DNA of 64,000 nt, from contig OX597826.1 in NCBI GenBank assembly GCA_951406725.2, positions 42,718,001-42,782,000 of the forward strand. The letters are read 5' to 3'. The notes under the pieces are model-generated. The model saw only the letters and a list, made by a program, of their open reading frames with translations. It ran no database searches and was not told the origin of the DNA. The position numbers and the translations under genes were made by a program. Below, in pieces: positions 3,026-61,153 of this stretch. Position 1 is the first letter of the stretch. Each line of letters starts with the position of its first letter. Source of the DNA: Octopus vulgaris (lineage: Eukaryota).

Positions 3026-4289
3026 TGTGTGTGTGTGTCTGTTTATAATTTGTGCTCTACAAAAGCCACTTGCTATGAGCAGTGTTGTCACATCCTTCAT
3101 TTCATGCCTTAAAACAAGATAAATTATCTAGCTGTATAACACAAATCCTGAGTATATAATACACAATGTACACACCCTCACTATAATACATAATATATGT
3201 ATCCTAATTGTGTAATTCATGATATATAGATATCTTGGTTGTATATTACACCAGTATACACTATATGTTATACAATGGTTGTGTGGTTAAGAAGCTCACT
3301 GCAACCATGAGGTTTTGGGTTCAGACGTTGGACAGGTGTCTTCTATAGTCCTGAGCTGACCAATGCTTTGTGAGTGAATTTGGTTAATAGAAACGGTATG
3401 GAATTAGTAGACAGAAACTGAAAGAAGCCTACTGTATATATATATATATATATGTCTATAAATGTGTTGTTGTGTGTTTACAGCCCCCATAACTTAGCAT
3501 TTCAGCAAAAGAGACCTATAGAAAAAGTAACAGGCCTTAAGAAAATAAGTACAGGGGTTGATTAGTTTGAGAAAACTTCCTTGAGGCAATATCCCAGCAT
3601 GGCTGCAGTCTAATGACTGAAACAAGTAAAAGATACTGGATATTCTCAATATATCTTAAGTGAGATTAAATTACAGCTTGGCCAGGCCAGTACTTCAGTC
3701 AAGAAGGAAAAGAGATCTTCAAATAAGGATAGGTTTTAAATTAACAAACCAACAAATAAATAAACTTCTTTAACTGTATATTTGTGTTTGTGCCCCACTA
3801 CTTGACAACTAGTGTCAGTTTGTTTTTGTCCCAGTAACTTAGCAGTTTGGCAAAAAAGACCAATAGAATAAATGTCAGACTTAAAAGATAGGTACCGGGG
3901 TCAATTTGTTTCACTAAACCCTTCAAGGCAGTGCCCCAGCATGGCCACAGCTCGATGACTGAAACAAGTAAATGATGAGAATATTCATATCCTGACAGTA
4001 TAATAATAAACACTATACAAATTTTTATGGTATAATGACATGTTTTTATAGAATTTTCACTTTATTGAGACTTTAAATCTAAAAATTAGGAGTGTGTATG
4101 ATACACAAAAGCTATTATTCATTTTTCAGTCATGTGAGTGTTGGCATGGTCAGGATGACTTAACCAGATGTCAACTAAATCTATTGTTCAAGCTAAGAGT
4201 TTAAATTATTATACTAATGTTATGGTTCTTTTGTATGATAGTAACACATTAAATGTTCATTATACTTCACAAATATGCTCATACCATAG

Positions 4290-4668
4290 ACGTAGGAGTG
4301 GCTGTGTGGTAAGTAGCTTGCTTACGAATCACATGGTTCTGGGTTCAGTCCCACTGCATGGCACCTTGGGCAAGTGTCTTCTACTATAGCTTCGGGCTGA
4401 CCAAAGCCTTGTGAGTGGATTTGGTAGATGGAAACTGAAAGAAGCCCGTCGTATATGTATGTTTGTGTGTCTGTGTTGTCCCCCCCCCCCAACATCGCTT
4501 GACAACCAACGCTGGTGTGTTTACGTCCCTGTAACTTAGCGGTTCGGCTAAAGAGATCGATAGAATAAGTACTGGGCTTACAAAGAATAAGTCCTGGCGT
4601 CGATTTGCTCGACTAAAGGCGGTGCCCCAGCATGGCCACAGTCAAATGACTGCAACAAGTAAAAGAGA
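4290..4668 (+). mobile_element. SINE family A
   Basis: Full head-to-tail copy matching 2057-2430. Confidence 0.85.
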
Positions 4669-4965
4669 TACCAGATATTGTATTGATCAAAGTTGTTTAA
4701 CAGAAGTAAAATATAAAGCAGAAACAGTGACAGCAAAGTGACTCAATGAACCAAGTTTCTGTTTATATGCTACTGTGTCTTGATCTGAGTATATATACAC
4801 TGCTATAAGAACACATCATCATCATCATTTAATGTCCACCTTTCCATGCCTCCATTGGTCAGGTGGAATTTGTTGAAGCAAGTTTTCTCTCACCAAATGC
4901 CCTTCCTATTGCCAATCCTTACCTGCTTCCTACCAGGTTTAATATTTCCCATAGCTAGGTTTTTT

Positions 4966-5948: not shown

Positions 5949-7381
5949 GTGCAGCAATGTCAAAGGAAGGCTAACTAGGTTTTTATTCAGCCTGATAGCT
6001 ATTTGCACTATCTATGAATGCATTCTCTGTGTCCTATATTGGAAGTGACAAATCTTGCATGACCGTGTTAAAGAAGTTTATTTATTTGTCGGTTTGTTAA
6101 TTTAAAACATATCCTTATTTGAATATAGGACACAGGAAAATAGTTTTTGTCTGTGGCAGATGCTCAGGAGCAATAAACACTGAAAATGTGCAGAGACCAA
6201 CTTCTACCACGTTCCAGGGAGAAAAACTAGAAGTAGTTGATAGCTTCCGCTACCTAGGTGACCAAGTCAGTAGCGGGGGTGGGTGTGCTGAAAGTGTAAC
6301 TGCTAGAGTAAGAATAGCCTGGGCAAAGTTTAGAGAGCTCTTACCCCTGCTGGTGACAAAAGGCCTCTCGGTCAGAGTAAAAGGCAGACTGTATGATGCA
6401 TGTGTACGTACAGCCGTGCTACATGGTAGTGAAACATGGGCTGTGACTGCTAAGGATATGCGTAAGCTCGCAAGAAATGAAGCCAGTATGCTCCGATGAA
6501 TGTGTAATGTCAGTGTTCATAATCGACAGAGTGTAAGTACCTTGAGAGAAAAGTTGGACCCAAGAAGCATCAGTTGTGGTGTGCAAGAGAGACGTTTGCG
6601 CTGGTATGGTCATGTGACGAGAATGGCTGAAGATAGTTGTGTGCAAAAGTGCCACACCCTAGCAGTTGAGGGAACCTGTGGAAGAGGTAGACCCAGGAAA
6701 ACCTGGGACGAGGTGGTGAAGCACGACCTTCGAACTTTAGGTCTCACTAAGGAAATGACTAGAGACCGAGACCTATGGAAGTATGCTGTGCATGAGAAGA
6801 CCCAGCAAGACTAGTGAGACCATAACCCGTGGCCTCTACCTGGTATGTAGCCAGTCGACTTATACATACCTTTCCTTCTTGGGACACAAAACTCCACTTG
6901 TGAAGACCCGTTGAGGCAAGTGAAAATCAAAATCAAATCAGATATCAGAAAGCAGAACCAAAATCGAAGTCGATCAACATCAATGGAAATTGCAGCTGTG
7001 ATACCAGTGCCGGTGACAAGTAAGCAAACCATCTGATCGTGGCCGTTGCCAGCGCCGCCCTGACTGGCCTCCGTGCCAGTGGCACGTAAAAAGCACCATC
7101 CGTTTGTGGCCGTTGCCAGCCTTGCCTGGCCCCCCGTGCCAGTGGTACATAAAAAGCACCATCCGTCCGTGGCCGTTTGCCAGCTCCGTCTGGCACATGT
7201 GCAGGTGGCACGTAAAAAGCACCCACTACACTCACAGAGTGGTTAGCGTTAGGAAGGGCATCCAGCCGTAGAAACACTGCCAGATCAGACGGCCTGATGC
7301 AGCCTTCTGGCTTCACAGACCCCAGTTGAACCGTCCAACCCATGCTAGCTTGGAAAGCGGACGCTAAATGATGATGATGAT
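5945..7381 (+). mobile_element. 5'-truncated RTE LINE with an internal templated insertion
   Basis: ORFs 6119-6499 and 6500-6814 match the C-terminus of the 54138-57260 RTE protein; shared 3' UTR and (ATG)n tail. Confidence 0.9.
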
Positions 7382-8232: not shown

Positions 8233-9448
8233 CTACGCTGCTACTTTTATACTGTGATGTCTTACAGTGCTGAATTCAAATTCTTTCATGGGAAACTTTA
8301 TTACACCTTCAACTCTTGACATCAATCTGCTTGAAACCACCTTTGGTTCAATGACGCTGTTGGTACATGGAGTGCATGAGGCGGTTCACAAAAGTCATTG
8401 GTACCCCTGCCCACACCCTGAGGAAAGCTGCCTCCAGTTCCACATGAGTTTTCAGCCTTGGGACCACCTGGTTTAGCCATCTCTGGATTTTATTCCACAG
8501 GTGTTCAAATGGGTTCAAATCCAGGCTGAGAGCCAGCCACGGCAAAGCTCTGATGTTGTACTGATGCAGGAAGTCCATGATGACTCTGTCCATGTGGGAG
8601 AGAGCATTGTCCTGCTGGAGCATGTAGCTATGGTGACACATGAAGAAGGGCACAATGTGAGGTCTTAGGATCTGGTCAATGTAGCACTGTGCTGTGATGC
8701 CATTCCCTCTGCCTGCACCAACATTTTGGAATACATAGGGGCCAATTTTCTGATTCAGGCCTATGGTACGCCCAAACCATGATGCTTTGGCCACCCCACG
8801 TGTCTGTAGCATTCACCCCTCCTGTGCCACATCCCCACTCTGCCATCCAAGGTGGAAACACAGTACTGGCTCTCATCAGAGAAGACTATCGACCTCCATT
8901 GTGGATGCCACCAATGTCGGTGTTGTGGGCGATGAGGACATGCCCTTGTGCAGGACAACAGCAACGCAGGTTTTTGTTGGTCAGTAGATGTCATACCGTG
9001 TTATCGCTGTCCAGTGCCATTGGTCTCGCAACCAATTGTATTGCTATTGCAGGTGATAGCTCGCAACAACCAGGGCACACTGTCCTGCTTGCAATCGGCC
9101 GATATCTTGTTCTCTCTGCGCTGCTGACAATCGGGTCATACCTGGTGCATCCAAATTACGAATGCCAGGAACGCAGTTCAAGTTGATTTTTATACCCATG
9201 ACCTCTATGTGATGCATGTGCATTTTGGTTTCCATGACAATTGTTTGCAACTGTCACCCATGGCATTCAAAGCAGCTTTATTTTGGCATCTTGTTTCAGG
9301 TAAAGTTGAAAGTTTACCTGCAATTTGGGTCTCAGCCATAAATCAGCATGTCTTAGAATATTTACGCTTACATCCCTGAAATAAATTTTCAGAATTTACC
9401 ATATAAAAATGACATGAAAAAATTGTGTTCCTTTTGCGGTTCAGCGTA
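8233..9448 (-). pseudogene. Fossil Tc1-family (DD34E) transposon
   Basis: Frameshifted motifs MTRLSAAQRE..IGRLQAG, IVFSDESQY, WGGQSIMVW, LQQDNA.SH, SLDLNPFEHLW. Confidence 0.9.
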
Positions 9449-14931: not shown

Positions 14932-16300
14932 ATCATCATCATCGTTTAACGTCCGCTTTCCATGCTAGCATGGGTTGGACGATTTGACTGAGGACTGATG
15001 TACCAAGTGGCTGCACCAGGCTCCAATCAGATCTGACAGTTTCTACAGCTGGATACCCTTCCTAACGCCAACCACTCTGAGGGTGTAGTGGATGCTTTTA
15101 TGTGCCACCAGCACAAGGGCCAGTCAAGCAGTACTGGCAATGGCCACGCTCAAATGGTTGTTATTTACATGCCACCTTCACAGGAGCCAGTCCAGCGGCA
15201 CTGGCAACGACCTCACTTGAATGTTGTTTTTCATGTGTCACCGGCACAAGTGCTAGTAAGGCAATGCTGGTAACGATCATGCTCAAATGGTGCTTTTTAT
15301 GTGCCACCGGTATGGAAGCCAGTCAGCTGCTCTGGAAACGATCATGCTCAGATGGTGCTCTTAGCGCTCCACTAGCAAGGATGCCAGTCATCAAATTTGA
15401 TTTTGATTTTGATTTCACTTGCCTCAACAGGTCTTTGCAACCAGAGTTTAGTGTCCAATGAAGGAAAGATACACATAAGTGGGCTGGTTACACCCCTGGC
15501 ATAGGCCATGGGTTAAGGTCTCACTTGGCTTGCCGGGTCTTCTCAACCACAGCATATTTCCAAAGGTCTCAGTCACTAGTCATTGCCTCGGTGAAGCCTA
15601 ATGTTCAAAGGTTGTGCTTCACCACCTCATCCCAAGTCTTCCTGGGTCTACCTCTTCCACAGATTCCCCCAACCGCTAGGGTGAGGCACTTTTTCACACA
15701 GCTATCCTCATCCATTCTTGCCACATGACCATACCAGCGCAATTGTCTCTCTTGCACACCACATCTGATGCTTCTTAGGTCCAACTTTTCTTTCAAGGTA
15801 TTTACACTCTGTCAAGTGTGCACACTAACATTACACATCCAGTGGAGCATACTGGCTTCATTCCTTGCGAGCTTACGCATGTCCTCAGCAGTCACAGCCC
15901 ATGTTTCACTGCATGCGTCATACAGTCTACCTTTTATTCTGAGCGAGAGGCCCTTTGTCACCAGCAGAGGTAAGAGCTTTCTGAACTTTGCCCAGGCTAT
16001 TCTTATTCTAGCGGCTACACTTTCAGCACACCCTCCACTGCTACTGACTTGGTCACCTAGGTAATGGAAGCTATCAACTACTTCTAGTTTTTCTCCTTGG
16101 AATGTGGTGGAAGTTGTTCCCTGCACATTTTCAGTGTTTATTGCTCCTGAGCTTCTGCCACATACAAAAACTATCTTCCCAGTTAGCCTTCCTTTGATAT
16201 TGCTGCACCTCTTATGTGTCCATAGCTTACATTGGGTACACCTTACAGAGTTTCTACCCATGCCTTTTCAAGCAGGGCCATCTACCTGAAGGGATTTGTG
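14932..16300 (-). mobile_element. 5'-truncated RTE LINE
   Basis: ORFs 15812-16261 and 15605-15796 homologous to the RTE C-terminus including the Cys-rich finger; (CAT)n tail at the left end. Confidence 0.9.
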
Positions 16301-17395: not shown

Positions 17396-17787
17396 ATATC
17401 TTTAACATCCTGTCATTAATATCATTATACACATTTCAATAATCAAGAAACATGTAACAAACACCATATATATACATATACAGAGAGAGAGAGATGAACT
17501 GGTAATATTAGATCCTAAATGCATTACATTGCATAACTGAAGTTTTAAAAGGAACTTGAACTACAATGTAAGAAGGTATGAAATTTGCAGGAATAAAAAA
17601 AAAAATTTTTAATTACCCACGTACACACACACACACACACACTTCCTTTTGTTAAATGTTAGGATGAACAGGCACCTATCATTTAAATCTACTAATCTCA
17701 ATGATCCATAGAATGGAACTTAACCCTGCTTTTCATACTGTTACATGATACATGGCAAACCTGAGCTAGGCTAGGATGTAAACATAT

Positions 17788-18176
17788 AGGCGTAGGAATG
17801 GCTGTCTGGTAAGTAGCTTGCTTACCAACCACATGGTTCAGGGTTCATTCCCACTGCGTGGCACCTTGGGCAAGTGTCTTCTACTATAGCCTCGGGCCGA
17901 CCAAAGCCTTGTGAGTGGATTTGGTAGACAGAGACTGAAAGAAGCCCGTCGTATATATGTATGTATGTGTATATGTTTGAGCCTGTGCTTGTCCCCCCAA
18001 CATCGCTTGACAACCGATGGTGGTGTGTTTACGTCCACATAACCTAGCAGTTCGGCAAAAGAGACCAATAGAATAAGTACTAGGCTTACAAAGAATAAGT
18101 CCTGGGGTCGATTTGCTCGACTAAAGGTGGTGTTCCATCATGGCCACAGTTAAATGACTGAAACAAGTAAAAGAGT
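17788..18176 (+). mobile_element. SINE family A
   Basis: Full copy. Confidence 0.85.
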
Positions 18177-18899
18177 ATATATATAATTTCCTCAGAATAG
18201 TTTTGTACCCATTTCTCCCATTAAATGAACAAAGGTAATGTAGAGGGAACTCTCAGGTTGAAATACAATTATAACTAGTTTGAACTAAAATCGTGTTATG
18301 CAGTAGTTTATACCTCATCCAATTGACCATGTTTTGCCTCTATTAAATTTTATGAATGGCCACATACATATAACTGTCTTGTTTCAGGTGAATGTTTACC
18401 AGTTGTCACTTTCTAATCAATGGCACTCACCTTACATTTTGTTATTTTCAAAACTCGGTGACACATAAAAGCACCATCTGTTCGTGGCCGTTTGCCAGCT
18501 CTGTCTGGCACCTGTGCAGGTGGCTCGTAAAAAGCACCCACTACACTCACGGAGTGGTTGGTGTTAGGAAGGGCATCCAGCTGTAGAAACACTGCCAGAT
18601 CTGACTGGGCCTGATGAAGCCTTCCAGCTTCACAGACCCCAGTTGAACCGTCCAACCCATGCTAGCATGGAAAACAGACGCTAAATGATGATGATGATGT
18701 GTGCCTCCTACATCTCCTTGCTCGTTAAGTCAGCTTATTGGTTATATCTACACCAGTACTATGCTAACAACTTATAACAAATTGTACTGCACCTGTGACA
18801 AATCTAATAGCTAAATGGGTGTGACCTTACTATCTCCTTAGGTAAGCTTCTCCACATCTCTCACACAACCAAAACTTTCAATCCTCAAATCTCTAAGTA

Positions 18900-28775: not shown

Positions 28776-28807
28776 GGAGTAATTTTTATATTAAAACTAT
28801 ATTTCTG

Positions 28808-29126
28808 CATGGAAGGTATTTATAAGCCATTTAAAAATTCACTTCAATATTTAAATTTAATTTGTCAAAATATCTTCGTCGCTTTGAGACTATGATCTGT
28901 TCACTGACAAAATTCTGTGCTGCAGCATGGGATTTTGTCAGTGAACAGGTCACAGTCTCAAAGCGACGAAAATATTTTGACAAATTAAAATTTAAATATT
29001 GAAGTGAATCAAATGGTTTTTGTGTGTTTTTAAATGGCCTATAAACACCTTCCACACTGCAATTGTTTTTGTTTCAGCACACGATCTCAGCTCAGGTCAT
29101 GTGCTATGCAAGGACATCTCCATAAT
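28808..29126. mobile_element. Short PLE-like insertion with palindromic structure and 13-bp TSD
   Basis: TSD AACTATATTTCTG at 28795-28807 and 29127-29139; long inverted arms centred on CTGCAG at ~28920-28925. Confidence 0.75.
28934..28984 (+). ncRNA. Variant hammerhead ribozyme fold with G3-C8 core (inverted copy at 28861-28911, minus strand)
   Basis: TTTGTCA-GTGAACA-G-GTCAC-AGTCTCAAA-GCGAC-GAAA-ATAT-TT-TGACAAA; 7-bp stem I. Confidence 0.6.
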
Positions 29127-29273
29127 AACTATATTTCTGTCTTATTGTTAGATTATCAGTGCACATATAAGTCTGGGAGTGCATTACGTCTCATTTCTTT
29201 TATACATGTATCTTATGCAAAATCTGTGATAAGCCCAAGTGACATTGATGACCTGGAGTCACCTCTGATGTAT

Positions 29274-35763: not shown

Positions 35764-36417
35764 CTGAAAATTCAAAGGTTTTGTCTTACATTGTTGTAGC
35801 TGTTGTTGTTTTAAGCCAATCCCAAGTTGCTTGAAATGATCCAGAACTAGTTTCGGTGAGCCTTAACCTGAATGTGCACAGTTCCCGTTTTTTTTTGTTT
35901 TTTTTTCCAGTGGAAACTAATTATACTCCTCATAAAATGTGCACCACCACCGTACAGCAATTGTCCCAGAAAAACGCATTTCCCCCCCATAGTGTCAGTG
36001 AGTAATTATTGAGGCTTTCTTTATAGATAAAATTTAATTTAGCTGTGGAAGTAGAATGACCAGTCAGTAAATGGGTCGTACATGCTTGATGAAAGACTTT
36101 GATACTTAATATGTATTGTTATATATATAATCAAACAAAACTGAATGCAACAGTTGATGTTCTTCTAGACGGCCAGCATGACTCCTAATGATGAAACTAT
36201 TAGCTTCAACACACGAAAGTCTCAGAATAAATTTCTTGTCAAGCAAGTACGGCACAAGAATAACATTTTTATGATATATATATATAGCATCATGTTCTAG
36301 TTGTCATTCGTTTGACTACATAAAAAAAAAGATCCTTTTTGGTGTTTTTTTCTTCTTTGTTTTAGGTTTTATAACCAAAACTTAAACTTTAAGATCTTCT
36401 ACTCTTTTTCTGGTGTT

Positions 36418-37371
36418 TTACCTTCTGTCCATCGTCGATTCTCGGAGGATTTTTTTAAGAGATTTACAAAAATATTTGACTGTTGATTCATAATTATTAG
36501 CCGGTCTTTTACTCAATGATAGATTCGCTAAACATCCATTTATGTCGTAACTCCAGTACTTTGGACTGTAGTGGAAATCAGATGTTTCACCAAACCTCGT
36601 TGTCTTTCTGGGTAGCTGTAGGTTACCAAGAACTTTAGACCTCAAACAATGGTTCTGCAGACGCGGGCTCTGCTTGATAGAAGTTTTGACCCCTCCACAA
36701 GATGGTTGTGAGAAGCTGTTGCTGTTGATACTATTGATGTTGTTGTTGCTGCTGATACTATTGATGTTGTTGTTGCTGCTATTATTGTTGGTACTGTTAT
36801 TGTAGTTATCATCAGTTCCTTTCATTTGCAGTTCAGTTCTACTCCGTACCAAATTAACTTTCGTTACTTTCAAATCACCTGTTAAAGTCGTATCATCCTT
36901 AGGTAACGAACTACTGTTTATAAAAGTCATATTTCTTTGTAGGTTCTTATCATGGTATCTACGTTTAATTAAGTTCTTTGAAGTTCGCCTGAATTCTGTC
37001 ACCTTACGGCTATCATTTGCTGATATAATATTCGTCTTCAATCTCTCCATGTCACCTCCGTAGTTCATTTTCATGTTGTACATTTTGAAGTCATTTGATA
37101 AAGCAACCTTTAAATGTTCGTTTTTGTTGTTCTCGTCTATGAAATAAATGCTGCTACCACCCAGCAATCTTGAGTAAGATTTACTGGTTTGATTATTTCT
37201 ACAACCCAATGTTGGCTTGTTATTTACTTTCCGGCCAGTGATTTCTGTAGAGCAATTTTTTTGCTGTACTTTGTCAACTTGCTCCAGTTGCTTTCGTATC
37301 AGAATTTCGGTTAATCTGTCAATTGGGTTCTGCTTTGCATTTATTCCTCGCGATTTAGGATTTGAAGTCAT
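36418..37371 (-). CDS. Orphan protein, 317 aa from first ATG (basic, Asn/Ser-rich, N-terminal coiled-coil-like helix); possibly exon 1 ending at 36422
   Basis: 954-nt stop-free non-TE ORF in AT-rich DNA; in-frame AAC/AGC runs; AG|GTAAAA donor overlaps the stop codon. Confidence 0.7.
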   Translation of the reverse strand: MTSNPKSRGINAKQNPIDRLTEILIRKQLEQVDKVQQKNCSTEITGRKVNNKPTLGCRNNQTSKSYSRLLGGSSIYFIDENNKNEHLKVALSNDFKMYNMKMNYGGDMERLKTNIISANDSRKVTEFRRTSKNLIKRRYHDKNLQRNMTFINSSSLPKDDTTLTGDLKVTKVNLVRSRTELQMKGTDDNYNNSTNNNSSNNNINSISSNNNINSINSNSFSQPSCGGVKTSIKQSPRLQNHCLRSKVLGNLQLPRKTTRFGETSDFHYSPKYWSYDINGCLANLSLSKRPANNYESTVKYFCKSLKKILRESTMDRR

Positions 37372-37514
37372 AATTGAATGCCAGAAAGAAAAAAAGACAT
37401 AGATCAGAACACAGAGAAAAAGAACGTTGTAGGTTGGGAGATTCAAATAGCACTTTCATCAAATAAGCAGCTTCAATCCTTAAAAGTTGTCTTTTTTTTT
37501 CTAAATCCTGAATG

Positions 37515-44428: not shown

Positions 44429-44584
44429 GTGATTGAGATGGAATAGCTGTATAAAGCTAAAATTTATTTGCTAAAATTGATATTCTATCTGAATTTTTCA
44501 AGAATTTCACACTTTATACCATTATTTGCATGGAGTGCTCCTGGTCTCAAAATATGCTGACTTGTTGGATAGCAGTCTGTCAGT

Positions 44585-44746
44585 CATTGTTCCCGAAAGA
44601 CTTCATTGTTCCTGAAAGACTTCGTTGCTCCTGAAAGACTTCATTGTTCCTGAAAGACTTCATTGTTCCTGGACGACTTCATTATTCCTGAAAGACTTCG
44701 TTGCTCCTGAAAGACTTCATTGTTCCTGAAAGACTCATTGTTCCTG
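44585..44746. repeat. 19-bp minisatellite, ~8 copies
   Basis: Unit CATTGTTCCTGAAAGACTT with a recurring variant CGTTGCTCCT. Confidence 0.9.
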
Positions 44747-45083
44747 TGATTATAAAACCTTTACTTGAATTTACCTTCAGTGATGCAAATGCATAGTTGC
44801 TTCTTCATGGTATCATTCAGGTAACTTCAGTTTCATATGTGGCTGATTCCACATTACATGCCTGTTTTAAATAGCATCTTTTGGTCTTCTAACATAACAA
44901 CATGGAATATCATGTTTGGATGGCTTGCTACTGATACGTGTTTTCATGTTAGATGAACAGCTGCAGCTAATTTTGATGCAATCACTGTTGAAAATCTTCC
45001 TATATCTATGATCTACCTTACAATGCTTATCTAGAAGGGCCAGGCATTTCTTTTTTTTACAATAGGACAGAAATTGCTTTTTT

Positions 45084-45324: not shown

Positions 45325-46606
45325 GTCTTGACAGTAATGGAAAAGACGAGGGTGAATAGTTACATAATTTTTCTAGATCTATTTCTGGACTGTGGAGTCT
45401 GTGTGTAGGAGGGTATCAGCCAATAAATTGAAGAGATCAGCTTCAAACTGGACATAGTTTGGGTTTTACATCAGAGATTTCAGTAGCACTCATCAGTTTG
45501 AAATTAAAAAGAAGAGTTATTCAGTATGCAGATTTCACTACAGCCTCCACTTTCTAAGCAAGATATCAGAAAATGATGAATTGAAAGTTAAAAGAGAAGC
45601 TCATTTTGCAATATACATAATTTTTGATTCAGCCCCACTCTGTGGACCCTTGGGTAAGTGTCTTCACTAGTCAGGGTTGACCAAATCCTTGTGAGTGAAC
45701 TTAGTTGTAGTTAAGACACCCGTGCTGGTGACAGAATTGTAGTTAAGACACCCATGCTGGTGACACGTAAAAAGCATCGTCCGAATGTGGCAGATGCCAG
45801 AGCCGCCTGACTGGCGTCCGTGTCGGTGACACGTAAAAGCACCAACCGATCATGGCCGTTTGCCAGCCTGCTCTGGCCCCTGTGCCAGTGGCACATAAAA
45901 AACACTGACTACACTCACGGAGTGGTTGGTGTTAGGAAGGGCATCCAGCTGTAGAAACACTGCCAAATCAGACTAGAGCCTGGTGCAGCCTCCATGGCTT
46001 ACCAGACCCTGGTCGAACTGTCCAACCCATGCTAGCATGGAAAACGGACGTTAAATAATGAAGCTATGTAGAAGTCTGATGTGTATATGTGTGCATGTGT
46101 ACTTGTCCCTACTCATCCCTTGACAGCTGGTGCTGGTTTGTTTATACCCCTGTAACTTAGCAGTTTTGCAGAGGAGACCAGTAGAATAAGTGCCAGACTT
46201 AAAAAATAAGTCCTGGGATTGGTTTGTTTGACTAAACCCTTCAAGGCAGTGTTCCAGTGCAACCATAGTCCAATGGTGGCAACAAGTGATAGAGAAAAGA
46301 AGATAAAAAAGAAAGACAAATTAGTGAACTGAAGGAAAGTCAGTAACAAATAAATAAATTTTTTTTCAAAAATTATTAAATGAAAGATCTATATTTCGGT
46401 TCTCATTGCCTAGATCTGGATGAATATATTATTGCATTTAAGGAGAGCTGACCAGTTTCAAAACTAAACTCATCAACATGATGCAGCTATTGAATATTTG
46501 GGTTTGGCATTCAAATATATTCTTGGTGTCAGTGAATTTTTTAAAGACTTAGTCCAGTTTTTCAGTTATGCAGAAACTACTTTTTCTATCATTTATATAA
46601 AGTTAC

Positions 46607-46968
46607 TTCGTTTTGGGATTTGGTTTGCAAGATTCTTTATATGAGTTCGTGTGTTGAAGCATATTCTGTTGTGTCTGGGGAGAGTCATTTTCTTTTTGTG
46701 CCTTATAATGTAACACACTCACCGGTAAAATTTCCACTTTTTTCTTATTTTTATTGTCCTAAAATTTCCGTTGCGTCTTGCAACCTTTTCAATAGTCTTA
46801 ACTCTAAACTATTGAAAAGGTTGCAAGAGAGTCAAAACTATTGAAAAGGTTGCAAGACGCAACGAAAATTTTAGGACAATAAAAATAAGAAAAAAGTGGA
46901 AATTTTACCGGTGAGTGTGTTACATTATAAGGCACAAAAAGAAAATTACTCTCCCCAGACACAACAGA
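46607..46968. mobile_element. Short PLE-like insertion with inverted arms and ~12-bp TSD
   Basis: TSD ATATAAAGTTAC at 46595-46606 and 46969-46980; ~135-bp near-perfect inverted arms (46661-46796 / 46837-46972). Confidence 0.75.
46838..46874 (+). ncRNA. Variant hammerhead ribozyme fold with U3-A8 core (inverted copy at ~46759-46795, minus strand)
   Basis: CTA-TTGAAAA-G-GTTGC-AAGAC-GCAAC-GAAA-AT-TT-TAG. Confidence 0.55.
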
Positions 46969-47769
46969 ATATAAAGTTACGCTTTTCAACAATTCTCCAG
47001 CTAATTCAGAGTTTGTAGTTTTCTAATTTCAATGATGAGATGTTGAATGCTTGCTTACTTTCCATTTCTCACTGTTTTTGAAGGTGGAGGTGTAATTATG
47101 AAATAATTTCTTCGTTGTCCTTTCTCTCATACCAATATTCCACTTTAGGACGATATCTTTGTCTTTTATCTTTTATTTACTTCAGTTGTTGGACTGTAGC
47201 CATGCTGGAGCACCACTTTGAAAATATTTTAGTAAAAAAAAAAAAATAACCCCTAGTACTTATTTTTAAAAATCTGCTACCTGTTGTATCAGTAACTTTT
47301 GCCAACCCACTAAGCTTTGGGAATGCAAACAAACCAACACCAGTTGTCAAGTGGTGTTGGTTGAGAGGTCAAACACAAATACAAAGATACATACACATTG
47401 ATATACAAACATATAAATCAAGGTTCCACATAGTTTCTGTCTACCAAATTCATTCACAAGGAATTGGTTGACCCAGGGATATAGAAGAAGACACTTTCTG
47501 GTAGGACTAAACTGAAAACCATGTCATTATTATCAATATCATAATTCTTATTTCTTTATTGCCCACAAGAGGCTAAACATAGAGGGGACAAACAAAGGGA
47601 TTAAGTCGATTACATCGACCCCAGTGCGTAACTGGTACTTAATTTATCGACCCCGAAAAGATGAAAGGCAAAGTCGACCTCGGCAGAATTTGAACTCAGA
47701 ACGTAACGGCAGACAAAATACCGCTATGCATTTCGCCCAGTGTGCTAACATTTCTGCCAGCTCACTGCC

Positions 47770-50399: not shown

Positions 50400-51245
50400 G
50401 ATGGATGTGTAATGTCAGTGTGCATACTCAACAGAGTGTAAGTACCTTGAGAGAAAAGTTGGACCTAAGAAGCATCAGATGTAGTGTGCAAGAGAGACAA
50501 CTGCGCTGGTATGGTCATGTGGCAAGAATGGATGAGGATAGCTGTGTGAAGAAGTGCCACACCCTAGTGGTTGAGGGAACCTGTGGAAGAGGTAGGCCCA
50601 GGAAGACCTGGGATGAAGTGGTGAAGCACGACCTTCGAACATTAGGCTTCACTGAGGCAATGACTAGTGACCGAGACTTTTGGTAATATGCTGTGCTTGA
50701 GAAGACCCCACAAGCCAAATGAGACCATCACCCATGGCCTATAACCAGGGGTGTGACCAGCCCACTTATGCATATCTTCCCTTCATTGGACGCTGCTTGC
50801 AAAGACCTGTTGAGGCAAGTGAAATCGAAATCAAATTCGATGACCAGCATCGTGCTAGTGGAGCACTAAGAGCACCATCCGAGCGTGATCATTGCCAGAG
50901 CGGCTAACTGGCGTCCGTGGCATGTGAAAAGCTAACTGGCGTCCGTGGCATGTGAAAAGCACCATTCGAGCGTGATCGTTACCAGCATCGCCTTACTGGC
51001 AGAAAAAAAAAAAACACCATTTGGGCGTGGCCGTTGCCAGTACCGCCTGACTGGCCCTCATGCTGGTGGCACGTAAAAGCACCCCCTACACTCTTGGAAT
51101 GGTTGGCGTTAGGAAGGGCATCCAGCTGTAGAAACTCTGCCAGATCAAGATTGGAGCCTGGTGCAGCCATCTGGTTTGCCAGTCCCAGTCAAATCATCCA
51201 ACCCATGCTAGCATGGAAAGTGGACGTTAAATGATGATGATGATA
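50400..51245 (+). mobile_element. 5'-truncated RTE LINE
   Basis: ORF 50405-50686 matches the RTE C-terminus; shared 3' UTR and (TGA)n tail. Confidence 0.9.
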
Positions 51246-54137: not shown

Positions 54138-57100
54138 TCAGCGGCACGGGGGCAACGAGGTCCGGGGTACTTTGGGGATCGGGGTACTTTGGGGATCCAG
54201 GGTACTTTGGGGATCCGGGGTGCTTAGAATGGGTAGGGGATATGTGGAATTGCTGCAGAAAGCAGCCCGGGTCTTTGTAGTCACAGCATATCTCCAGAGA
54301 TCTCGGTCCTTCGCCATTGCCTCAGTGAGGCCCAATGCTCTGAGGTCATGCTTGACCACCTCATCCCATGTCTTCCTGGGTCTACCTCTCCCCCTGATAC
54401 CTTCAACTGTTTGGGAGTGGCACTTCTTCACACATCTCTCTTCATCCATCCGCAGCACATGACCATACCATCGCAAGCGTCGCTCTTGCACACCACATCT
54501 GATGCTTCTTATATCCAGCATTTCTCTCAGGATACTTACACTCTGTTTTGCGTGCACACTGACACTACACATCCAGCAGATCATGCTAGCTTCATTTCTT
54601 TCAAGTCTACGCATGTCTTCTGCAGTCACAGCCCATGTTTCATTACCGTGAAGCATGGCAGTTCGCACACATGCATCATACAATCTACCTTTTGCTCTGA
54701 GGGAGAGACCTTTTGTTGCCAGTAGGGGTAGGAGCTTTCTGAACTTTGCCCAGGCTATTCGTATTCTAGTGGTGATACTCTCTGTGCATCCACCTCCGCT
54801 ACTAACTTGGTCTCCCAGGTAGCGGAAACTATCAACTACTTCTAGTTTCTCTCCCTGGAGTGTGATGGAATCTGTTTTCTGAGTGTCTGTTGTGTCTATT
54901 GTCCCTGTGCATCTGCCGCACATGAAAGCTATCTTATCTGTTAATTTCCCTTTAATGTTGCTGCACCTCTTATGTGTCCATAACTTACATTGGGTGCATC
55001 TTATGGAGTTTCTACCTGTACCTTTCCTACAGGTTGAGCAGGGCCACCTACCCGAGGGGATGTGTGCTGAGTACCTCTTGCTGCTTACTAATACTTTGGT
55101 CTTTGCTACATTTATTCTAAGGCCCTTTGATTCCAACCCTTGCTTCCACACCCGAAATTTCTCTTCTAGTTCCGGTAGTGATTCTGCTATGAGAGCTAGG
55201 TCATCGGCATAGAGGAGCTCCCAGGGGCATCCCGTTTTGAATTCCTCTGTTATTGCCTGAAGGACTATGATGAATAAAAGGGGACTGAGGGCTGAACCCT
55301 GGTGCACACCTACTTCTACTCGGAATTCTTCACTATATTCGTTGCCAATCCTAACCTTGCTGACAGCCTCTCTGTATAGAGCCTGTACAGCCCTTATTAG
55401 CCATTCTTCAATCTCCAGTTTCCGCATCGACCACCAGATAAGGGAACGGGGAACCCTGTCAAAGGCTTTCTCCAAGTCTACAAAAGCTATGTAGAGGGGT
55501 TTATCTTTAGCTAGGTACTTCTCCTGCAGTTGTCGGACCAGGAATATAGCATCAGTGGTGCTTCTACCTGGTACAAAACCGAACTGCATTTCATCTAAAC
55601 AAATTCTCTCCCTAATGAGATTGGTTATGACCTTCTCTGAGACCTTCATCACCTGGTCCAACAGTTTGATACCTCTGTAGTTATTTCTATCTAGAGCATC
55701 ACCCTTACCCTTGTAGCAGTTGACTATGGTGCTGCTGTACCAGTCATTGGGTATGGCTCCATTGTGAACTACCTGGTTTACAATGCGGGTGACTATGGCA
55801 TGGCCCACATAGCCAGCTGCTGTTTTAAGCATCTCAGCAGTGATTCCTGATAGGCCAGGGGCTTTGCCTGGTTTCATATCCTTAATTGCCTTATCTACAA
55901 GGGAGCTGTCTATTCGGGTAGCTGGTCCCTCTACTGGGTCAACATTTGGCAGGCTCTCCTCCTCCCATTCATTCTCCTCATTCAGCAGTCTTTCATAATG
56001 GCTTCTCCAAGCCTCTTTCTTTTCACTAGTAGTAAAAGCAAGTGCCCCATCATCCATGCGGACACATTTCTCTCCTATAACATCGCTATTTTCTCTGACA
56101 CACTGTCTGGCAATCCGAAATACTTCAGCTCTTTGATCCTCGCGACGCTGGACATTGGCAAACTTCTTCTTTTCTGCTACATCTTTGGCAATGTATACCT
56201 GCCGCCCAGCCTCCCTTTTGGCTATCTGGTACAGTTCCCTGCTGCCCCCATCCTTCCAGGCTTTCCAGGCCCGTCTCTTTTCACAGATGGCTTTATCTAC
56301 TGCACTATTCCACCACCACGTAATTCTAGGTCTGGAAGGGACTTTGCACCATCCACAAACTTGGTCTGTGGCACTCAACAAGCTGTCCCGTAGGAATTCC
56401 CAGCTACCTTCTATGTCTGACGTCTGAACCTCCTCTTCCCTCTCATCAAATTTCTTGATGAGTATGTCCCTAAATTTCTGACCATGCGAAGGGTTCTTTA
56501 GCCTCCAAATCCTTCTTTTCTGGATTGGTTTGTTTCTTGGAGTCCTTCTGGCCTCAAGCTTAAAGTCACTGATGATTAGTCTATGCTGAGGGATACATTC
56601 TTCACCCGGGAGGGTCTTTGTATTCAAGAGCAACCCTGCATCCCGTTGTCTGGTGAGGATGAAGTCTATTTGGCTAGCGGAGTCTCCTGACTGATAAGTT
56701 ATAAGGTGGCAGACTGGCTTCTTGAAGTTAGTGTTGCAGATTGAAAGGTTACATGCATCACAGAATTCCAGCAGTCTAGTTCCCTCATCATTTCTGGTGC
56801 CAATACCATAGCCACCATGTACCCCAGTGAAGATACCCGATTCCCACCCAACATGCCCATTAAAATCTCCACCTACAAAGATGAGGTCCTTGTTACTAGT
56901 CTTTGAAGTAGCCTGCAGAAGGGTATCATAAAAATTGTCCTTCTGATCATTTGGTAGTCCCGCTTGTGGGGCATAGGCTGAGATAATCATAGCTGTGCCA
57001 CTCTGTAGGACCAACCTGAGCTTAAGCACTCTATCACAAACCCTGACAACCTCTATGACCTTATCCACCCATTCCTCCGCAAGGAGAATGCCTACACCCC

Positions 57101-57260
57101 CTACACCTTCCGCGTTACCTTGCCAGTAGAGTTTGTATCTAAGTGCCTTGCCCGTGAGGACCCTAGCCGAAGCATCTCTCCATCTTACCTCTTGTATGCA
57201 GCATACATCAACCTGTCTTCTCTCTAGCATCTCTACAATCTCACTAGACTTGCCTGTCAA
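54138..57260 (-). CDS. RTE ORF: APE endonuclease, reverse transcriptase and PHD-like finger
   Basis: CIQEVRW, GDFNGHVG, QIDFIL, QHRLI; NYRGIKL, QFGFVPGRST, FVDLEKAFD, GVHQGSALSPLLF, YADD, FRYLG; frame stays open upstream to ~57429 without an ATG. Confidence 0.95.
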   Translation of the reverse strand: MTGKSSEIVEMLERRQVDVCCIQEVRWRDASARVLTGKALRYKLYWQGNAEGVGGVGILLAEEWVDKVIEVVRVCDRVLKLRLVLQSGTAMIISAYAPQAGLPNDQKDNFYDTLLQATSKTSNKDLIFVGGDFNGHVGWESGIFTGVHGGYGIGTRNDEGTRLLEFCDACNLSICNTNFKKPVCHLITYQSGDSASQIDFILTRQRDAGLLLNTKTLPGEECIPQHRLIISDFKLEARRTPRNKPIQKRRIWRLKNPSHGQKFRDILIKKFDEREEEVQTSDIEGSWEFLRDSLLSATDQVCGWCKVPSRPRITWWWNSAVDKAICEKRRAWKAWKDGGSRELYQIAKREAGRQVYIAKDVAEKKKFANVQRREDQRAEVFRIARQCVRENSDVIGEKCVRMDDGALAFTTSEKKEAWRSHYERLLNEENEWEEESLPNVDPVEGPATRIDSSLVDKAIKDMKPGKAPGLSGITAEMLKTAAGYVGHAIVTRIVNQVVHNGAIPNDWYSSTIVNCYKGKGDALDRNNYRGIKLLDQVMKVSEKVITNLIRERICLDEMQFGFVPGRSTTDAIFLVRQLQEKYLAKDKPLYIAFVDLEKAFDRVPRSLIWWSMRKLEIEEWLIRAVQALYREAVSKVRIGNEYSEEFRVEVGVHQGSALSPLLFIIVLQAITEEFKTGCPWELLYADDLALIAESLPELEEKFRVWKQGLESKGLRINVAKTKVLVSSKRYSAHIPSGRWPCSTCRKGTGRNSIRCTQCKLWTHKRCSNIKGKLTDKIAFMCGRCTGTIDTTDTQKTDSITLQGEKLEVVDSFRYLGDQVSSGGGCTESITTRIRIAWAKFRKLLPLLATKGLSLRAKGRLYDACVRTAMLHGNETWAVTAEDMRRLERNEASMICWMCSVSVHAKQSVSILREMLDIRSIRCGVQERRLRWYGHVLRMDEERCVKKCHSQTVEGIRGRGRPRKTWDEVVKHDLRALGLTEAMAKDRDLWRYAVTTKTRAAFCSNSTYPLPILSTPDPQSTLDPQSTPIPKVPRTSLPPCR

Positions 57261-57568
57261 TGTACCAACATTGATAGTGCCAACTCTGAAAACTGGGAAG
57301 GAGATGTGGGGGGGACGGGGGGATTCGGCGCCTGAGAAGAGGAGGGTTGTAGTGGTGGTGATAATTTTCGTGGTATTTTTCTTTTGATCTCTCTTCCAAC
57401 CTGACCACGCCGTGGGCAGGAGCTGGTGTTAGCAGTGGACATTCGTTATCATCACTGAGTAACGTAATTAGGTAGAGGAAAGAAATACAGATATTCTAGA
57501 GTTGAGTTGGGGAGGGGGGGGTCCAGTTGAGGCGGGTAATATAGGGGAGCAACCAGTGGGGAAGGTTG

Positions 57569-58489: not shown

Positions 58490-59378
58490 TATGAGGGGAG
58501 ACTGACTTGGAAATGCCACTATGAAAGGTTGCTAAATGAAAAGAATGAATGGGAGAGAGTCTGCTAAATGTCAACCCAACAGAAGTACCATCTATCCAAA
58601 TTAACAGTACCTTGATAGATAAAGCAATTAAGGGTATGAAGACAGGGATAGCCCCTGACCCATCAGGAATCACTGCAGAGATGCTTAAAATATCTGGTAG
58701 TGTCAGCTATAGTCTTGTCACCTGTATAGTCAATCAGGTGATACATGAAGGAGTCATACCCAGTGACTAGTGTAGCAGCACCATAGTCAACTGCTACAAA
58801 GGTAAAGGTGACACATTAGATACAAATAATTACAGAGGTATCAAATTGTTGGATCAGGTGATGAAAGTCATGGAGAGGGTCATAGCCCAACTAATTAAAG
58901 AGAGAGTTAGTTTAGACGAGATGCAGTTTGAGTTTGTGTCTGGAAGAAGCACCACTGATGCCATATTTCTGGTAAGACACATACCATATTTCTGGTAAGA
59001 CAGACAAAGATAAACCTCTGTACTTGGCTTTCATTGACATGGAGAAAGCCTTTGACAGGGTCCTCCAATCCCTTACCTGGTGGTCAATACAGAAACTATG
59101 GATAGATGAGTGGTTAGTGAGAGCTGTACAAGCCATGTACAGGGATGCTGTCAGTAAGGTGAGGGTTGGCAACGAGTATAGTGAAGAATTCCGGGTAGAG
59201 GTAGGGGTCCACCAAGGATCAGTCCTCAGTCCTCTTTTATTCATCATAGTCCTCCATGCAATAACAGAGGAATTCAAGACAGGATGCCCCTGGGAGCTCC
59301 TCTTTGCTGATGACCTTGCTGAGTCACTATCAGAACTAGAGGAGAAGTTTCAGGTGTGGAAGCAAGGTCTAGAATAGA
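58490..59378 (+). pseudogene. Decayed internal RTE RT fragment
   Basis: NYRGIKLLDQVMK, FIDMEKAFD, GVHQGSVLSPLLF, FADDL, with stops and frameshifts. Confidence 0.9.
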
Positions 59379-59581
59379 CGAAATAACATGAATCTTGGAA
59401 GGCAACACTGGAAGTCTATGACTTATTTCCCCTTCCTATACCTAATCCATTTTACTAAGTTGTACTCCTCTCACACTAAAGTTTTGCTCCTATTCTTCTT
59501 ATGCTCTCTTCAATAAGAAAAATATACTGTACCTATTGGTAGCTGATTCTTGTATGTATTGGCTCTCCTAACCATTTAGAC

Positions 59582-59705: not shown

Positions 59706-60565
59706 AACTGATCTTTTACTAGTTTATGTATTAAGAGTACATATGTATGTAACACACAGTTTTGCATGTGTATGTATTCTTATAATACTTCCTTATGTTT
59801 TAGAATAAATAGACATAGTAGAATGTCTACTGGCTGATGTATGTCATTTTTGCAACCCCTCCATTTTCTTTTTTGCCGTATAAATTAAGGGTAAACCACT
59901 TTTTACCCCTTCCCATGTATGACACTCGATTGCGAAATTGCCATGCAATAATCAACACTTGGGTATTAATAATTGGGTACACTACCAGCAATATATTGGA
60001 TAGATACTATCCCTTAGTTGGTTGGCTTACCAACCTCTAACTCTCACGGAAATATTCATACATATACATGCATGCACACATACACACACTCATATATACA
60101 TACACATATATATGCATATGTATGTATTTATATATGTATACATAATGTATGTTATATAATTTGTTGATAGTAAATTCAATGCTTTACTGGTTGAATGCAA
60201 TCAAACTATCATTTAAAGATACCATATAAGTTAAATTTTGGAGTCACTGTCAAGAAATTATGATGAATATTAACCTCTACATATGTGCCAAGTCTTTTAA
60301 TTGGTTTATATTCTTTTTTTATTTATATATTTATAAGCTCATATCTTTAACTGTAAAGATGTGTGTGTGTGTGCGCGTAGATACACATACATACTCTTTT
60401 GCTTTTACTCATTTCAGTTATTGGACCTTAGCCAAGTTGGTGAAGCATCTTGAAAGATTTAGCAGATTGTACCAACCTCAAGTACTTCATCTATTACTTA
60501 TTTTTATCTGCCTTTGAACTGAGAATTTAAAAGGACATATCCAAGTCCCTTTAACACTTCCTGAA

Positions 60566-61153
60566 ATGTATGCAGAGTTACAGTGTCAAACACAAGAAGA
60601 GAGATTGCAACGTGAGTTAAATATCACATTTTACAACCTAGACAAACAACGACAAGTCATGCTTCAGGGAATAACATGTGACCAACACAAATGGAGAAAA
60701 AAGTTGCTAAAATACCAACTACAAATAGAAATTAACAAATTTAACAATCTTTTCAGTGACAAACCGCAAGAAACAGTGCGACAGATGACATCCTTGTCTC
60801 AGAATCTTACCCAAAAGTCAGAGCAAGATATTCTTTTAAATCTGAAGAAAGTAGGTGACAGCTGTGATGCCAACCAGGGCAAACGGTTGCGTAGGGTTTT
60901 ATTCAGCAAATATATGAACCAAGTATTTAATCGTTCCACTGGAGCGCGATCCGTTAACCAGACACGTCAACTTCATTCCAGTGATGGAACTACATCTTCC
61001 CAACAAGGAAATAATGCATTTTTGCGGGACGCTACCAGGTTATCTTCATTTGGATACAGACGGAATATTGACAAGTCAGAGATTTTCAGTGGGAAAAGTG
61101 TACAGCTACCAAAACTTGTTAACACTAATGGGAGGGAAAACAGATCTCACTGA
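60566..61153 (+). CDS. Orphan protein, 195 aa, predicted N-terminal coiled coil
   Basis: ATG-started, stop-free, non-repetitive ORF; helical EERLQRELNITFYNLDKQRQ..DQHKWRKKL segment. Confidence 0.6.
   Translation: MYAELQCQTQEERLQRELNITFYNLDKQRQVMLQGITCDQHKWRKKLLKYQLQIEINKFNNLFSDKPQETVRQMTSLSQNLTQKSEQDILLNLKKVGDSCDANQGKRLRRVLFSKYMNQVFNRSTGARSVNQTRQLHSSDGTTSSQQGNNAFLRDATRLSSFGYRRNIDKSEIFSGKSVQLPKLVNTNGRENRSH

What the first reader, a model, noticed from the sequence alone, without database searches (positions are those of the whole stretch)
46607..46968. Second palindromic TSD-flanked element, with U3-A8 hammerhead folds
Seen: ~12-bp TSD and ~135-bp near-identical inverted arms, suggesting a young insertion. 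The arm begins CTA TTGAAAA G GTTGC AAGAC GCAAC GAAA AT TT TAG: perfect 5-bp stem II, AATT palindromic stem III, 3-bp stem I. A truncated third copy sits in the spacer (46808-46828). The longer arm runs into an ATG-started frame (MTLPRHNRICFNTRTHIKNL, minus strand). The primary sequence is unrelated to 28808-29126, yet the architecture is the same: divergent ribozyme pair, extra G after A9, UUU triplet. Inference: an independent PLE pLTR family with a different compensatory 3-8 pair.
Basis: partly seen in the sequence, partly recalled or inferred. Interest (0 to 1): 0.72.

Follow-up and report, generated by a model that had tools for sequence, protein, structure and literature searches.

The report
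Palindromic Penelope-like retroelement fragment with hammerheads
This is a 362-base insertion scar, probably in an octopus genome, made of two back-to-back copies of the front end of a Penelope-like retrotransposon, each with a minimal hammerhead ribozyme motif of an already described type, so it is a real but largely ordinary example.

Summary
The anatomy is real: an exact 12-bp target-site duplication, 141-bp head-to-head arms with 4 mismatches, a 58-bp one-sided tail, and a junction hairpin. The right arm holds a complete minimal hammerhead with a U3-A8 core (0.01 expected by chance per 64 kb). The outward-running frame is the N-terminus of a Penelope-like element (PLE) ORF: it aligns at the start of an RT-bearing protein whose relatives carry GIY-YIG-type cores and a Nematis-like Cys linker; octopus proteins belong to the same family. 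The element at 28808-29126 is a homologous sister family, not unrelated, and the two hammerheads differ by four compensatory pairs with none broken. U3-A8 cores, the extra base after A9, opposite-strand hammerhead pairs, inverted pLTRs, tails and junction palindromes are all published for PLEs. Most likely it is a dead-on-arrival product of two internally primed cDNAs made on uncleaved RNA. The exact parent, copy number and cleavage activity are untested. Verdict: new member of a known kind, interest 0.3.

The parts
46595..46606 (.). Target-site duplication, left copy (12 bp, AT-rich)
   Evidence: 12/12 identity with 46969-46980; only 2 occurrences in the window
46607..46664 (-). One-sided tail: 58 nt by which the long arm outruns the short arm (ORF +25 to +82); its end is 90% A+C over the last 20 nt
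   Evidence: a level reached by 0.45% of window 20-mers
46607..46688 (-). First 27 codons of a PLE-type ORF (MTLPRHNRICFNTRTHIKNLANQIPKR), cut off by the insertion end
   Evidence: Profile of database N-termini scores it E 3.9e-6 among 2136 six-frame chunks; P0005 residues 1-45 alone finds it as best window hit, E 0.0026
46665..46805 (-). Long (left) arm: short leader, hammerhead, 73-nt 5' UTR, start of ORF
46759..46795 (-). Left hammerhead copy, U3-A8, with core change A13G at 46768; probably inactive (inferred)
46776..46828 (.). Junction hairpin: 21-bp arms, 11-nt loop; its right arm (46808-46828) is the truncated third copy holding stem I 5' strand, core box and stem II 5' strand
   Evidence: -21.9 kcal/mol as DNA; it can also supply the 5' half of an alternative fold on the same GAAA box
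46828..46968 (+). Short (right) arm, ending at ORF +24; start codon position reads ATT (46945-47)
46831..46877 (+). Intact minimal type-I hammerhead motif: stem I CUA/UAG plus possible GUC/GAC extension, core UUGAAAA, extra G, 5-bp stem II, GAAA, AAUU palindrome, UUU triplet, predicted cut after 46871
46969..46980 (.). Target-site duplication, right copy; its first 4 nt (ATAT) equal the element's own continuation (microhomology at the joint)

Best explanation
The 362-bp element is a non-coding, dead-on-arrival insertion of an endonuclease-bearing Penelope-like retrotransposon (probably of the Nematis/Neptune type), mobilised by the parent's RT and GIY-YIG protein. Shown in sequence: TSD, two head-to-head copies of leader + hammerhead + 5' UTR + ORF start, unequal ends at ORF +24 and +82, a junction hairpin. 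Inferred: the protein nicked both strands of an AT-rich target 12 bp apart; each nick primed cDNA at an internal A/C-rich site a few codons into the ORF (one at about +24-28 helped by a 4-nt microhomology, one at about +82); both cDNAs ran back through an uncleaved hammerhead and stopped 10-12 nt upstream of stem I, possibly the RNA 5' end; a short snap-back synthesis (the third copy) and microhomology joined them. The hammerhead is inherited cargo that was under structural selection in the parent family. At this locus it is probably silent: a read-through transcript would fold the arms into one long hairpin about 30 kcal/mol more stable than the fold with hammerhead stems, the left core is mutated, and the AAUU stem III needs a partner copy or protein help.
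For: TSD, arms, tail, junction hairpin. Descriptor far above chance. Against the sister element's right arm, of 9 tabulated pairs 5 are identical, 4 change on both sides and stay Watson-Crick, 0 break. Homology chain: el1 peptide 79% identical over 24 aa to Octopus bimaculoides protein P0001; P0001 leads to O. sinensis P0003 and O. vulgaris P0004; their profile finds 20 proteins of 706-1158 aa, 20 of 20 with YVDD, 18 of 20 with a DK(S/G)(G/S) motif, 15 of 20 with a Y-x-G-E-(T/S)-x-(R/K) nuclease core, 14 of 20 matched by a CX2-5CxxC-x6-8-C linker pattern. This element's peptide aligns with residues 3-26 of P0005 (48% over 25 aa; 2 of 5000 shuffles against the full protein). Sister element has the same asymmetry: ends at +23 and +93, 13-bp TSD; a third remnant ends at +94. 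Published precedent for both-strand nicking and extension, internal starts and uncleaved template (PMC11167929), and for inverted pLTR, tail, 8-10-bp TSD and junction palindromes (PMC3846280). Hairpin energetics: -233.0 versus -202.9 kcal/mol with stems forced.
Against: The exact parent ORF was not found: the direct 41-aa search gave nothing at E<=10 and the atlas gave nothing above 0.79. Pairwise protein matches of this peptide are individually weak (tblastn E 0.71 against the window). P0001 was retrieved with a profile that contained this peptide. Pfam RT and GIY-YIG scores of the relatives are all below curated cut-offs (6 of 20 and 3 of 20 at E<0.1). No Rfam hammerhead model matches. The monomer fold is only modestly better than shuffles (z -2.2, 8 of 200). 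The tails (58 and about 70 nt) are longer than the 30-40 bp reported. The A+C richness is clear here (0.8, 0.9) but not at the sister element's ends (0.55, 0.6). Twin priming versus fold-back cannot be separated with one locus.
Confidence: 0.82

Rival explanations
1. Same PLE origin, but one priming event: the long cDNA reached the RNA end, folded back and copied itself (self-priming on an antisense strand), and the copy jumped to the second nick through the ATAT microhomology.
For: Junction hairpin and third copy show at least one snap-back; the short arm is nested within the long arm; self-priming was proposed for head-to-head junction palindromes in PMC3846280.
Against: Short arms of both palindromic elements end at almost the same offset (+24, +23), which suits a fixed second start site. 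The three non-canonical changes near the junction are on the long arm only and are not in the short arm, so they would all have to postdate insertion (possible; n is small).
Confidence: 0.35
2. The palindrome is itself a propagating non-autonomous unit (a miniature PLE derivative or retrozyme-like family) with an active ribozyme that processes its own RNA.
For: Two such palindromes of related families in 64 kb; one core intact; pLTRs suffice for mobilisation in trans (PMC3846280); animal retrozymes are proposed to derive from pLTRs (bioRxiv 10.64898/2026.07.22.740005, abstract and introduction).
Against: No second copy of this element in the window; junctions of the two palindromes differ; no head-to-tail hammerhead array; a full transcript would bury the motif in duplex; left cores of both elements are mutated.
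Confidence: 0.1
3. A MITE or fold-back DNA transposon with long inverted repeats; the hammerhead look is chance.
For: Long inverted repeats and a TSD; no coding capacity.
Against: The repeats are not terminal: the left end overhangs by 58 nt and the termini do not match; PLE ORF start runs outward into the TSD; compensatory pairs; chance rate 0.01 per window.
Confidence: 0.03
4. Assembly or amplification artefact (chimeric fold-back read).
For: Palindromes are a known artefact class (general knowledge).
Against: Exact flanking duplication, 4 arm differences, asymmetric tail, and a second element with the same design.
Confidence: 0.02

Closest known systems
Minimal hammerheads (min-HHR) of metazoan PLE pLTRs, incl. 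the U3-A8 variant of Schistosoma mansoni Cercyon (Cervera and De la Pena 2014, PMC4209133)
   Same: U3-A8 covariation; same core heptamer UUGAAAA as their S. mansoni(4) row; unpaired base between 9 and 10.1; G10.1-C11.1; palindromic 15.2-16.2; pairs on opposite strands 100-700 bp apart. The Crassostrea gigas PLE row reads A U U U after the GAAA box, which I parse from the extracted table as the same AAUU palindrome and UUU triplet.
   Different: Extra base is G, whereas their >80% consensus has H (a Nasonia row has G); 3-bp proximal stem I; the two motifs here start under 50 nt apart; no cephalopod row in the supplement parts read (2 of 3).
Inverted-pLTR insertions of EN+ PLEs (Adineta vaga Pen2-Pen6, PMC3846280; general scheme in PMC8557442)
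   Same: Head-to-head inverted copies, TSD, pLTR that includes the first codons of the ORF, one-sided tail, palindrome at the inverted junction.
   Different: No ORF body or direct pLTR at all; TSD 12 bp versus 8-10; tail 58 nt versus 30-40; extra third partial copy.
Poseidon PAc of Anolis in vitro (Frangieh et al. 2024, PMC11167929)
   Same: AT-rich target, both strands used, two internal A/C-rich start points in the ORF that define the tail, uncleaved RNA as template.
   Different: PAc hammerhead overlaps the start codon and has C3-G8; here it lies 73 nt upstream of the ATG with U3-A8; start offsets differ; relatives here have a Cys linker that Penelope/Poseidon lack.
Nematis and Neptune PLE clades (as described in PMC8557442)
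   Same: Relatives of the ORF have RT, then CX2-5CxxC linker, then nuclease core; the 6-8 residue spacing to the next Cys matches the Nematis rows of their Fig. S2 (7) rather than Neptune (about 25).
   Different: Clade placement rests on linker spacing read by eye, in relatives only; no reference sequences were in the tree.

Membership tests
Insertion derived from an EN+ Penelope-like element (pLTR-type fragment) | Sequence homologous to a PLE ORF or pLTR | tested here: met
   Outward frame matches N-termini of RT-bearing PLE-type ORFs (profile E 3.9e-6; P0005 alone E 0.0026), through the chain
Insertion derived from an EN+ Penelope-like element (pLTR-type fragment) | 3' end lies a few codons into the ORF, with optional one-sided tail | tested here: met
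   Ends at +24 and +82
Insertion derived from an EN+ Penelope-like element (pLTR-type fragment) | Direct or inverted pLTR arrangement with TSD | tested here: met
   Head-to-head arms, 12-bp TSD
Insertion derived from an EN+ Penelope-like element (pLTR-type fragment) | Hammerhead motif in the pLTR, sense to the ORF | tested here: met
   73 nt upstream of codon 1, same strand
Insertion derived from an EN+ Penelope-like element (pLTR-type fragment) | Exact parent copy joined to RT + GIY-YIG ORF | not testable with these tools
   No eukaryotic genome DNA collection on hand; direct protein search negative
Autonomous full-length PLE | Single ORF with RT and GIY-YIG domains | tested here: not met
   Only 27 codons present; a full-length profile finds no RT or nuclease core beside it
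Minimal type-I hammerhead motif (min-HHR) | Core boxes with a Watson-Crick 3-8 pair, GAAA, UH (right arm) | tested here: met
   UUGAAAA / GAAA / UU; U3-A8 is a reported natural variant (PMC4209133, PMC3088659)
Minimal type-I hammerhead motif (min-HHR) | Same core, left arm | tested here: not met
   GGAA, A13G
Minimal type-I hammerhead motif (min-HHR) | Stems I and II with G10.1-C11.1, extra base after 9, palindromic 15.2-16.2 | tested here: met
   4 compensatory pairs versus the sister element
Minimal type-I hammerhead motif (min-HHR) | Self-cleavage at H17 (as dimer or with protein) | not testable with these tools
   AAUU self-duplex is predicted unstable (+2.2 kcal/mol versus -1.7 for ACGU)
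Rfam hammerhead families | Match to a curated covariance model | tested here: not met
   No hammerhead family at E<=1 over the window or E<=10 over 46825-46900
Nematis clade of PLEs | Short CX2-5CxxC linker between RT and nuclease; RT phylogeny | tested here: inconclusive
   Linker spacing fits in 14 of 20 relatives; closest N-terminal match P0005 ends before the linker; no reference-anchored tree
Non-LTR retrozyme | Head-to-tail tandem units each with a complete hammerhead | tested here: not met
   Copies are head-to-head; third copy is a 21-26 nt fragment
MITE / TIR DNA transposon | Terminal inverted repeats at both ends | tested here: not met
   Termini do not match; 58-nt overhang

The most novel reading that the evidence does not exclude
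ORF-less head-to-head minis such as this one are a stereotyped, common product of twin internal priming in an undescribed octopus PLE lineage: each records the RNA 5' end (all 4 arms of the two palindromes stop just upstream of the hammerhead) and two fixed RT start sites (about +24 and +82 to +94), and sister families have swapped the hammerhead 3-8 pair between two non-canonical states (U-A and G-C) with compensation throughout. A genome census would then test directly how PLE inverted pLTRs and tails arise and whether the 3-8 pair is selected in vivo.
Probability: 0.35. Interest if true: 0.5.

Novelty: new member of a known kind. Interest (0 to 1): 0.3.

Why it matters
It adds a probable cephalopod example of PLE minimal hammerheads and a clean record of a PLE insertion reaction. 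The steps that make inverted pLTRs and tails are still described as undefined (PMC8557442) or unvalidated (PMC11167929), and short intact scars like this give end points that can be counted genome-wide. The natural covariation between two sister families supports selection on the hammerhead fold although its role in PLE mobility is unclear. None of the individual features is new.

Tried and rejected
Rfam: no hammerhead match, only hairpin-driven miRNA hits below gathering scores. Direct search with the 41-aa open frame: 1 candidate, none at E<=10. Atlas searches with the peptide and with P0001: nothing above 0.79. Pfam on the two short peptides and P0001/P0004: nothing informative. P0002, the second hit, is a repetitive protein with no PLE features and was set aside as chance. 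Single-sequence fold of P0004 was unusable (pLDDT 34.5). tblastn of P0001 against phage records: no match. The sigma-70 scan is not relevant to an animal genome. The tree was the quick version without reference PLEs and was not used for clade placement. Flank translations show no interrupted ORF. No stable stem-loop at the putative RT start region (z +1.0 and +1.5), unlike the stem-loop reported for PAc. MITE, retrozyme and assembly artefact were considered and rejected (see rivals). A-to-I editing of the template as source of the two A-to-G changes on the left arm was considered; too few changes to test. Lunse et al. (PMC5785218) could not be read and may already cover further core variants. 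Source names for the long relatives could not be obtained. Metagenome and viral contig collections stayed unchecked; no animal genome collection was available.

Full report
Observation. The element spans 46607-46968 between two identical 12-mers (46595-46606, 46969-46980) that occur nowhere else in the window. It holds inverted arms 46661-46805 and 46828-46972 (145 nt, 97%); 141 nt are inside the element and four (ATAT) overlap the right duplication. The arms point outward, head to head. The left arm runs 58 nt further. Between them lies a 21-bp hairpin whose right half is the third partial copy. The four arm differences are at 46833/46800, 46836/46797, 46865/46768 and 46947/46686.

The hammerhead. 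The right arm reads stem I CUA, core UUGAAAA, extra G, 5-bp stem II, GAAA, AAUU palindrome, U17 at 46871, UAG. Predicted folding gives stem II, stem I and a GUC/GAC extension, z -2.2, 8 of 200 shuffles as good. A descriptor accepting any Watson-Crick 3-8 pair with stem II >=5 and stem I >=3 hit twice in the window, both on this GAAA box (the second using the third copy), versus 0.01 per shuffled window (100 shuffles) and 0 of 20000 arm shuffles; a looser setting gave 3 hits versus 0.07. The descriptor was written after seeing the motif, so these figures are favourable. Stronger evidence is comparative: against the right arm of the element at 28808-29126 (core GUGAACA, G3-C8), 5 of 9 tabulated pairs are identical, 4 change on both sides and remain Watson-Crick, none breaks. 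Rfam has no matching hammerhead model.

The parent. A direct search with the 41-aa frame failed. A two-sequence profile of both elements' peptides found 2 proteins among 1.84 billion: P0001, an uncharacterised Octopus bimaculoides protein, and P0002, set aside as repetitive. P0001 is 79% identical over 24 aa to the sister peptide and weakly similar to this one. It led to O. sinensis P0003 and O. vulgaris P0004, and a P0004/P0001 profile to 20 proteins of 706-1158 aa among the 8000 candidates scored. All 20 have YVDD, 18 a DKG-like motif, 15 a nuclease core pattern, 14 a CX2-5CxxC linker followed by Cys after 6-8 residues; Pfam gives only sub-threshold RT (6 of 20) and GIY-YIG (3 of 20) matches. 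This element's peptide aligns with residues 3-26 of P0005 (48% over 25 aa). The first 45 residues of P0005 alone pick this frame as best of 2136 window chunks (E 0.0026); a profile of P0001, P0003 and P0005 N-termini gives E 3.9e-6, with the caveat that P0001 was found with a profile containing this peptide. So the frame is the start of a PLE-type ORF, from a family whose own full-length copy I did not find. Linker spacing resembles Nematis more than Neptune in Fig. S2 of PMC8557442, read by eye. The host is probably an octopus, by these homologues; species not determined.

Relation to 28808-29126. The two elements are homologous in peptide (0 of 5000 shuffles) and DNA (0 of 2000). Both have a 12-13 bp AT-rich TSD, a short arm ending at ORF +23/+24, a long arm ending at +82/+93, junctions just upstream of the hammerhead, and a left copy with core damage. 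A third, single-arm remnant at about 36130-36271 (nhmmer E 3e-4; peptide support weak, 78 of 5000 shuffles) ends at +94.

Mechanism. Shown: the anatomy above, and that both arms span the predicted cut site. Inferred, using PMC11167929 as model: nicks on both strands of an AT-rich target, internal priming at two sites in the ORF start (last 20 nt 80% and 90% A+C here, only 55-60% in the sister element), copying of uncleaved RNA back to just before the hammerhead, and joining through a snap-back and microhomology. A single cDNA that folded back on itself (the self-priming idea of PMC3846280) remains possible. At the locus the motif is probably silent: the whole element folds to -233.0 kcal/mol as one hairpin versus -202.9 with hammerhead stems forced, and the AAUU stem III duplex is predicted unstable. 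Using 0.09 substitutions per site for 25 My as quoted in PMC13282606, 4 differences in 141 nt give about 4 My (1-10); conversion between arms or RT errors would bias this.

Comparison with known work. PMC4209133 (main text parts 1-2 of 4, supplement parts 1-2 of 3) reports U3-A8 in Cercyon PLE hammerheads (about 1,300 hits), the extra base after A9, palindromic 15.2-16.2, opposite-strand pairs, and low in vitro activity; its alignment includes the core UUGAAAA and an oyster PLE motif that I parse as AAUU/UUU. PMC3088659 (passages) notes natural U3-A8 covariation and earlier in vitro activity of covarying cores. PMC3846280 (parts 1-4 of 5) describes inverted pLTRs, TSDs, tails and junction palindromes. 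PMC11167929 (parts 1-2 of 4) gives the biochemistry. PMC8557442 (passages, supplement search and part 54 of 59), PMC6765202, PMC8969392 and PMC13282606 (passages) and bioRxiv 10.64898/2026.07.22.740005 (part 1 of 5) were also used. Lunse et al. was seen only as a title in a reference list. I found no report of octopus PLE hammerheads in searches; the O. vulgaris repeat paper counts 31 recently active Penelope-like families and has no occurrence of 'ribozyme' in its main text. Repbase, Dfam, subscription journals and unread supplements could hold this family.

Verdict. A real, well-preserved PLE-derived insertion; new member of a known kind. Filed as a pLTR-type fragment, not an autonomous PLE, and as a min-HHR motif on the right arm only, activity untested. 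Interest 0.3.

Noticed in passing
window 28795-29139: Sister palindromic insertion: 13-bp TSD, G3-C8 hammerhead core on the right arm, left arm with A15.1G and G10.1A, 10-bp palindrome at the junction; its peptide is 74-79% identical to N-termini of octopus proteins P0001/P0003.
   Followed up: yes
window 36117-36284 (+): Third, single-arm remnant of a related family without hammerhead, ATG at 36178, between 12/13-identical TA-rich repeats; ends at ORF +94. Peptide support is weak.
   Followed up: partly
window 18774-18884 (-): Degraded fragment resembling the PLE thumb-to-Cys-linker region (profile E 0.009; weak tblastn hits from 7 relatives).
   Followed up: partly
window 54138-57428 (-): Open 1096-aa ORF with endonuclease, RT and PHD-like matches: an apparently intact LINE; decayed relatives at about 6100-6900, 15400-16300, 50400-50700, 58700-59400.
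   Followed up: partly
P0003 (Octopus sinensis protein): PLE N-terminal region (about 220 aa) joined to a methyltransferase domain in an annotated gene model: exon capture or an annotation merge.
   Followed up: no
window 36418-37455 (-) and 60518-61153 (+): Open frames of 345 and 211 aa with no Pfam match; possible host exons.
   Followed up: partly
window 8348-8812 (-): DDE_3 transposase fragment (E 2e-4).
   Followed up: no
window 44565-44773: Tandem array of a 19-bp unit, about 10 copies.
   Followed up: no
window, many sites (e.g. 2054-2444, 4286-4686, 17786-18194): Abundant 400-bp SINE-like repeat family and (TA)n microsatellites.
   Followed up: no
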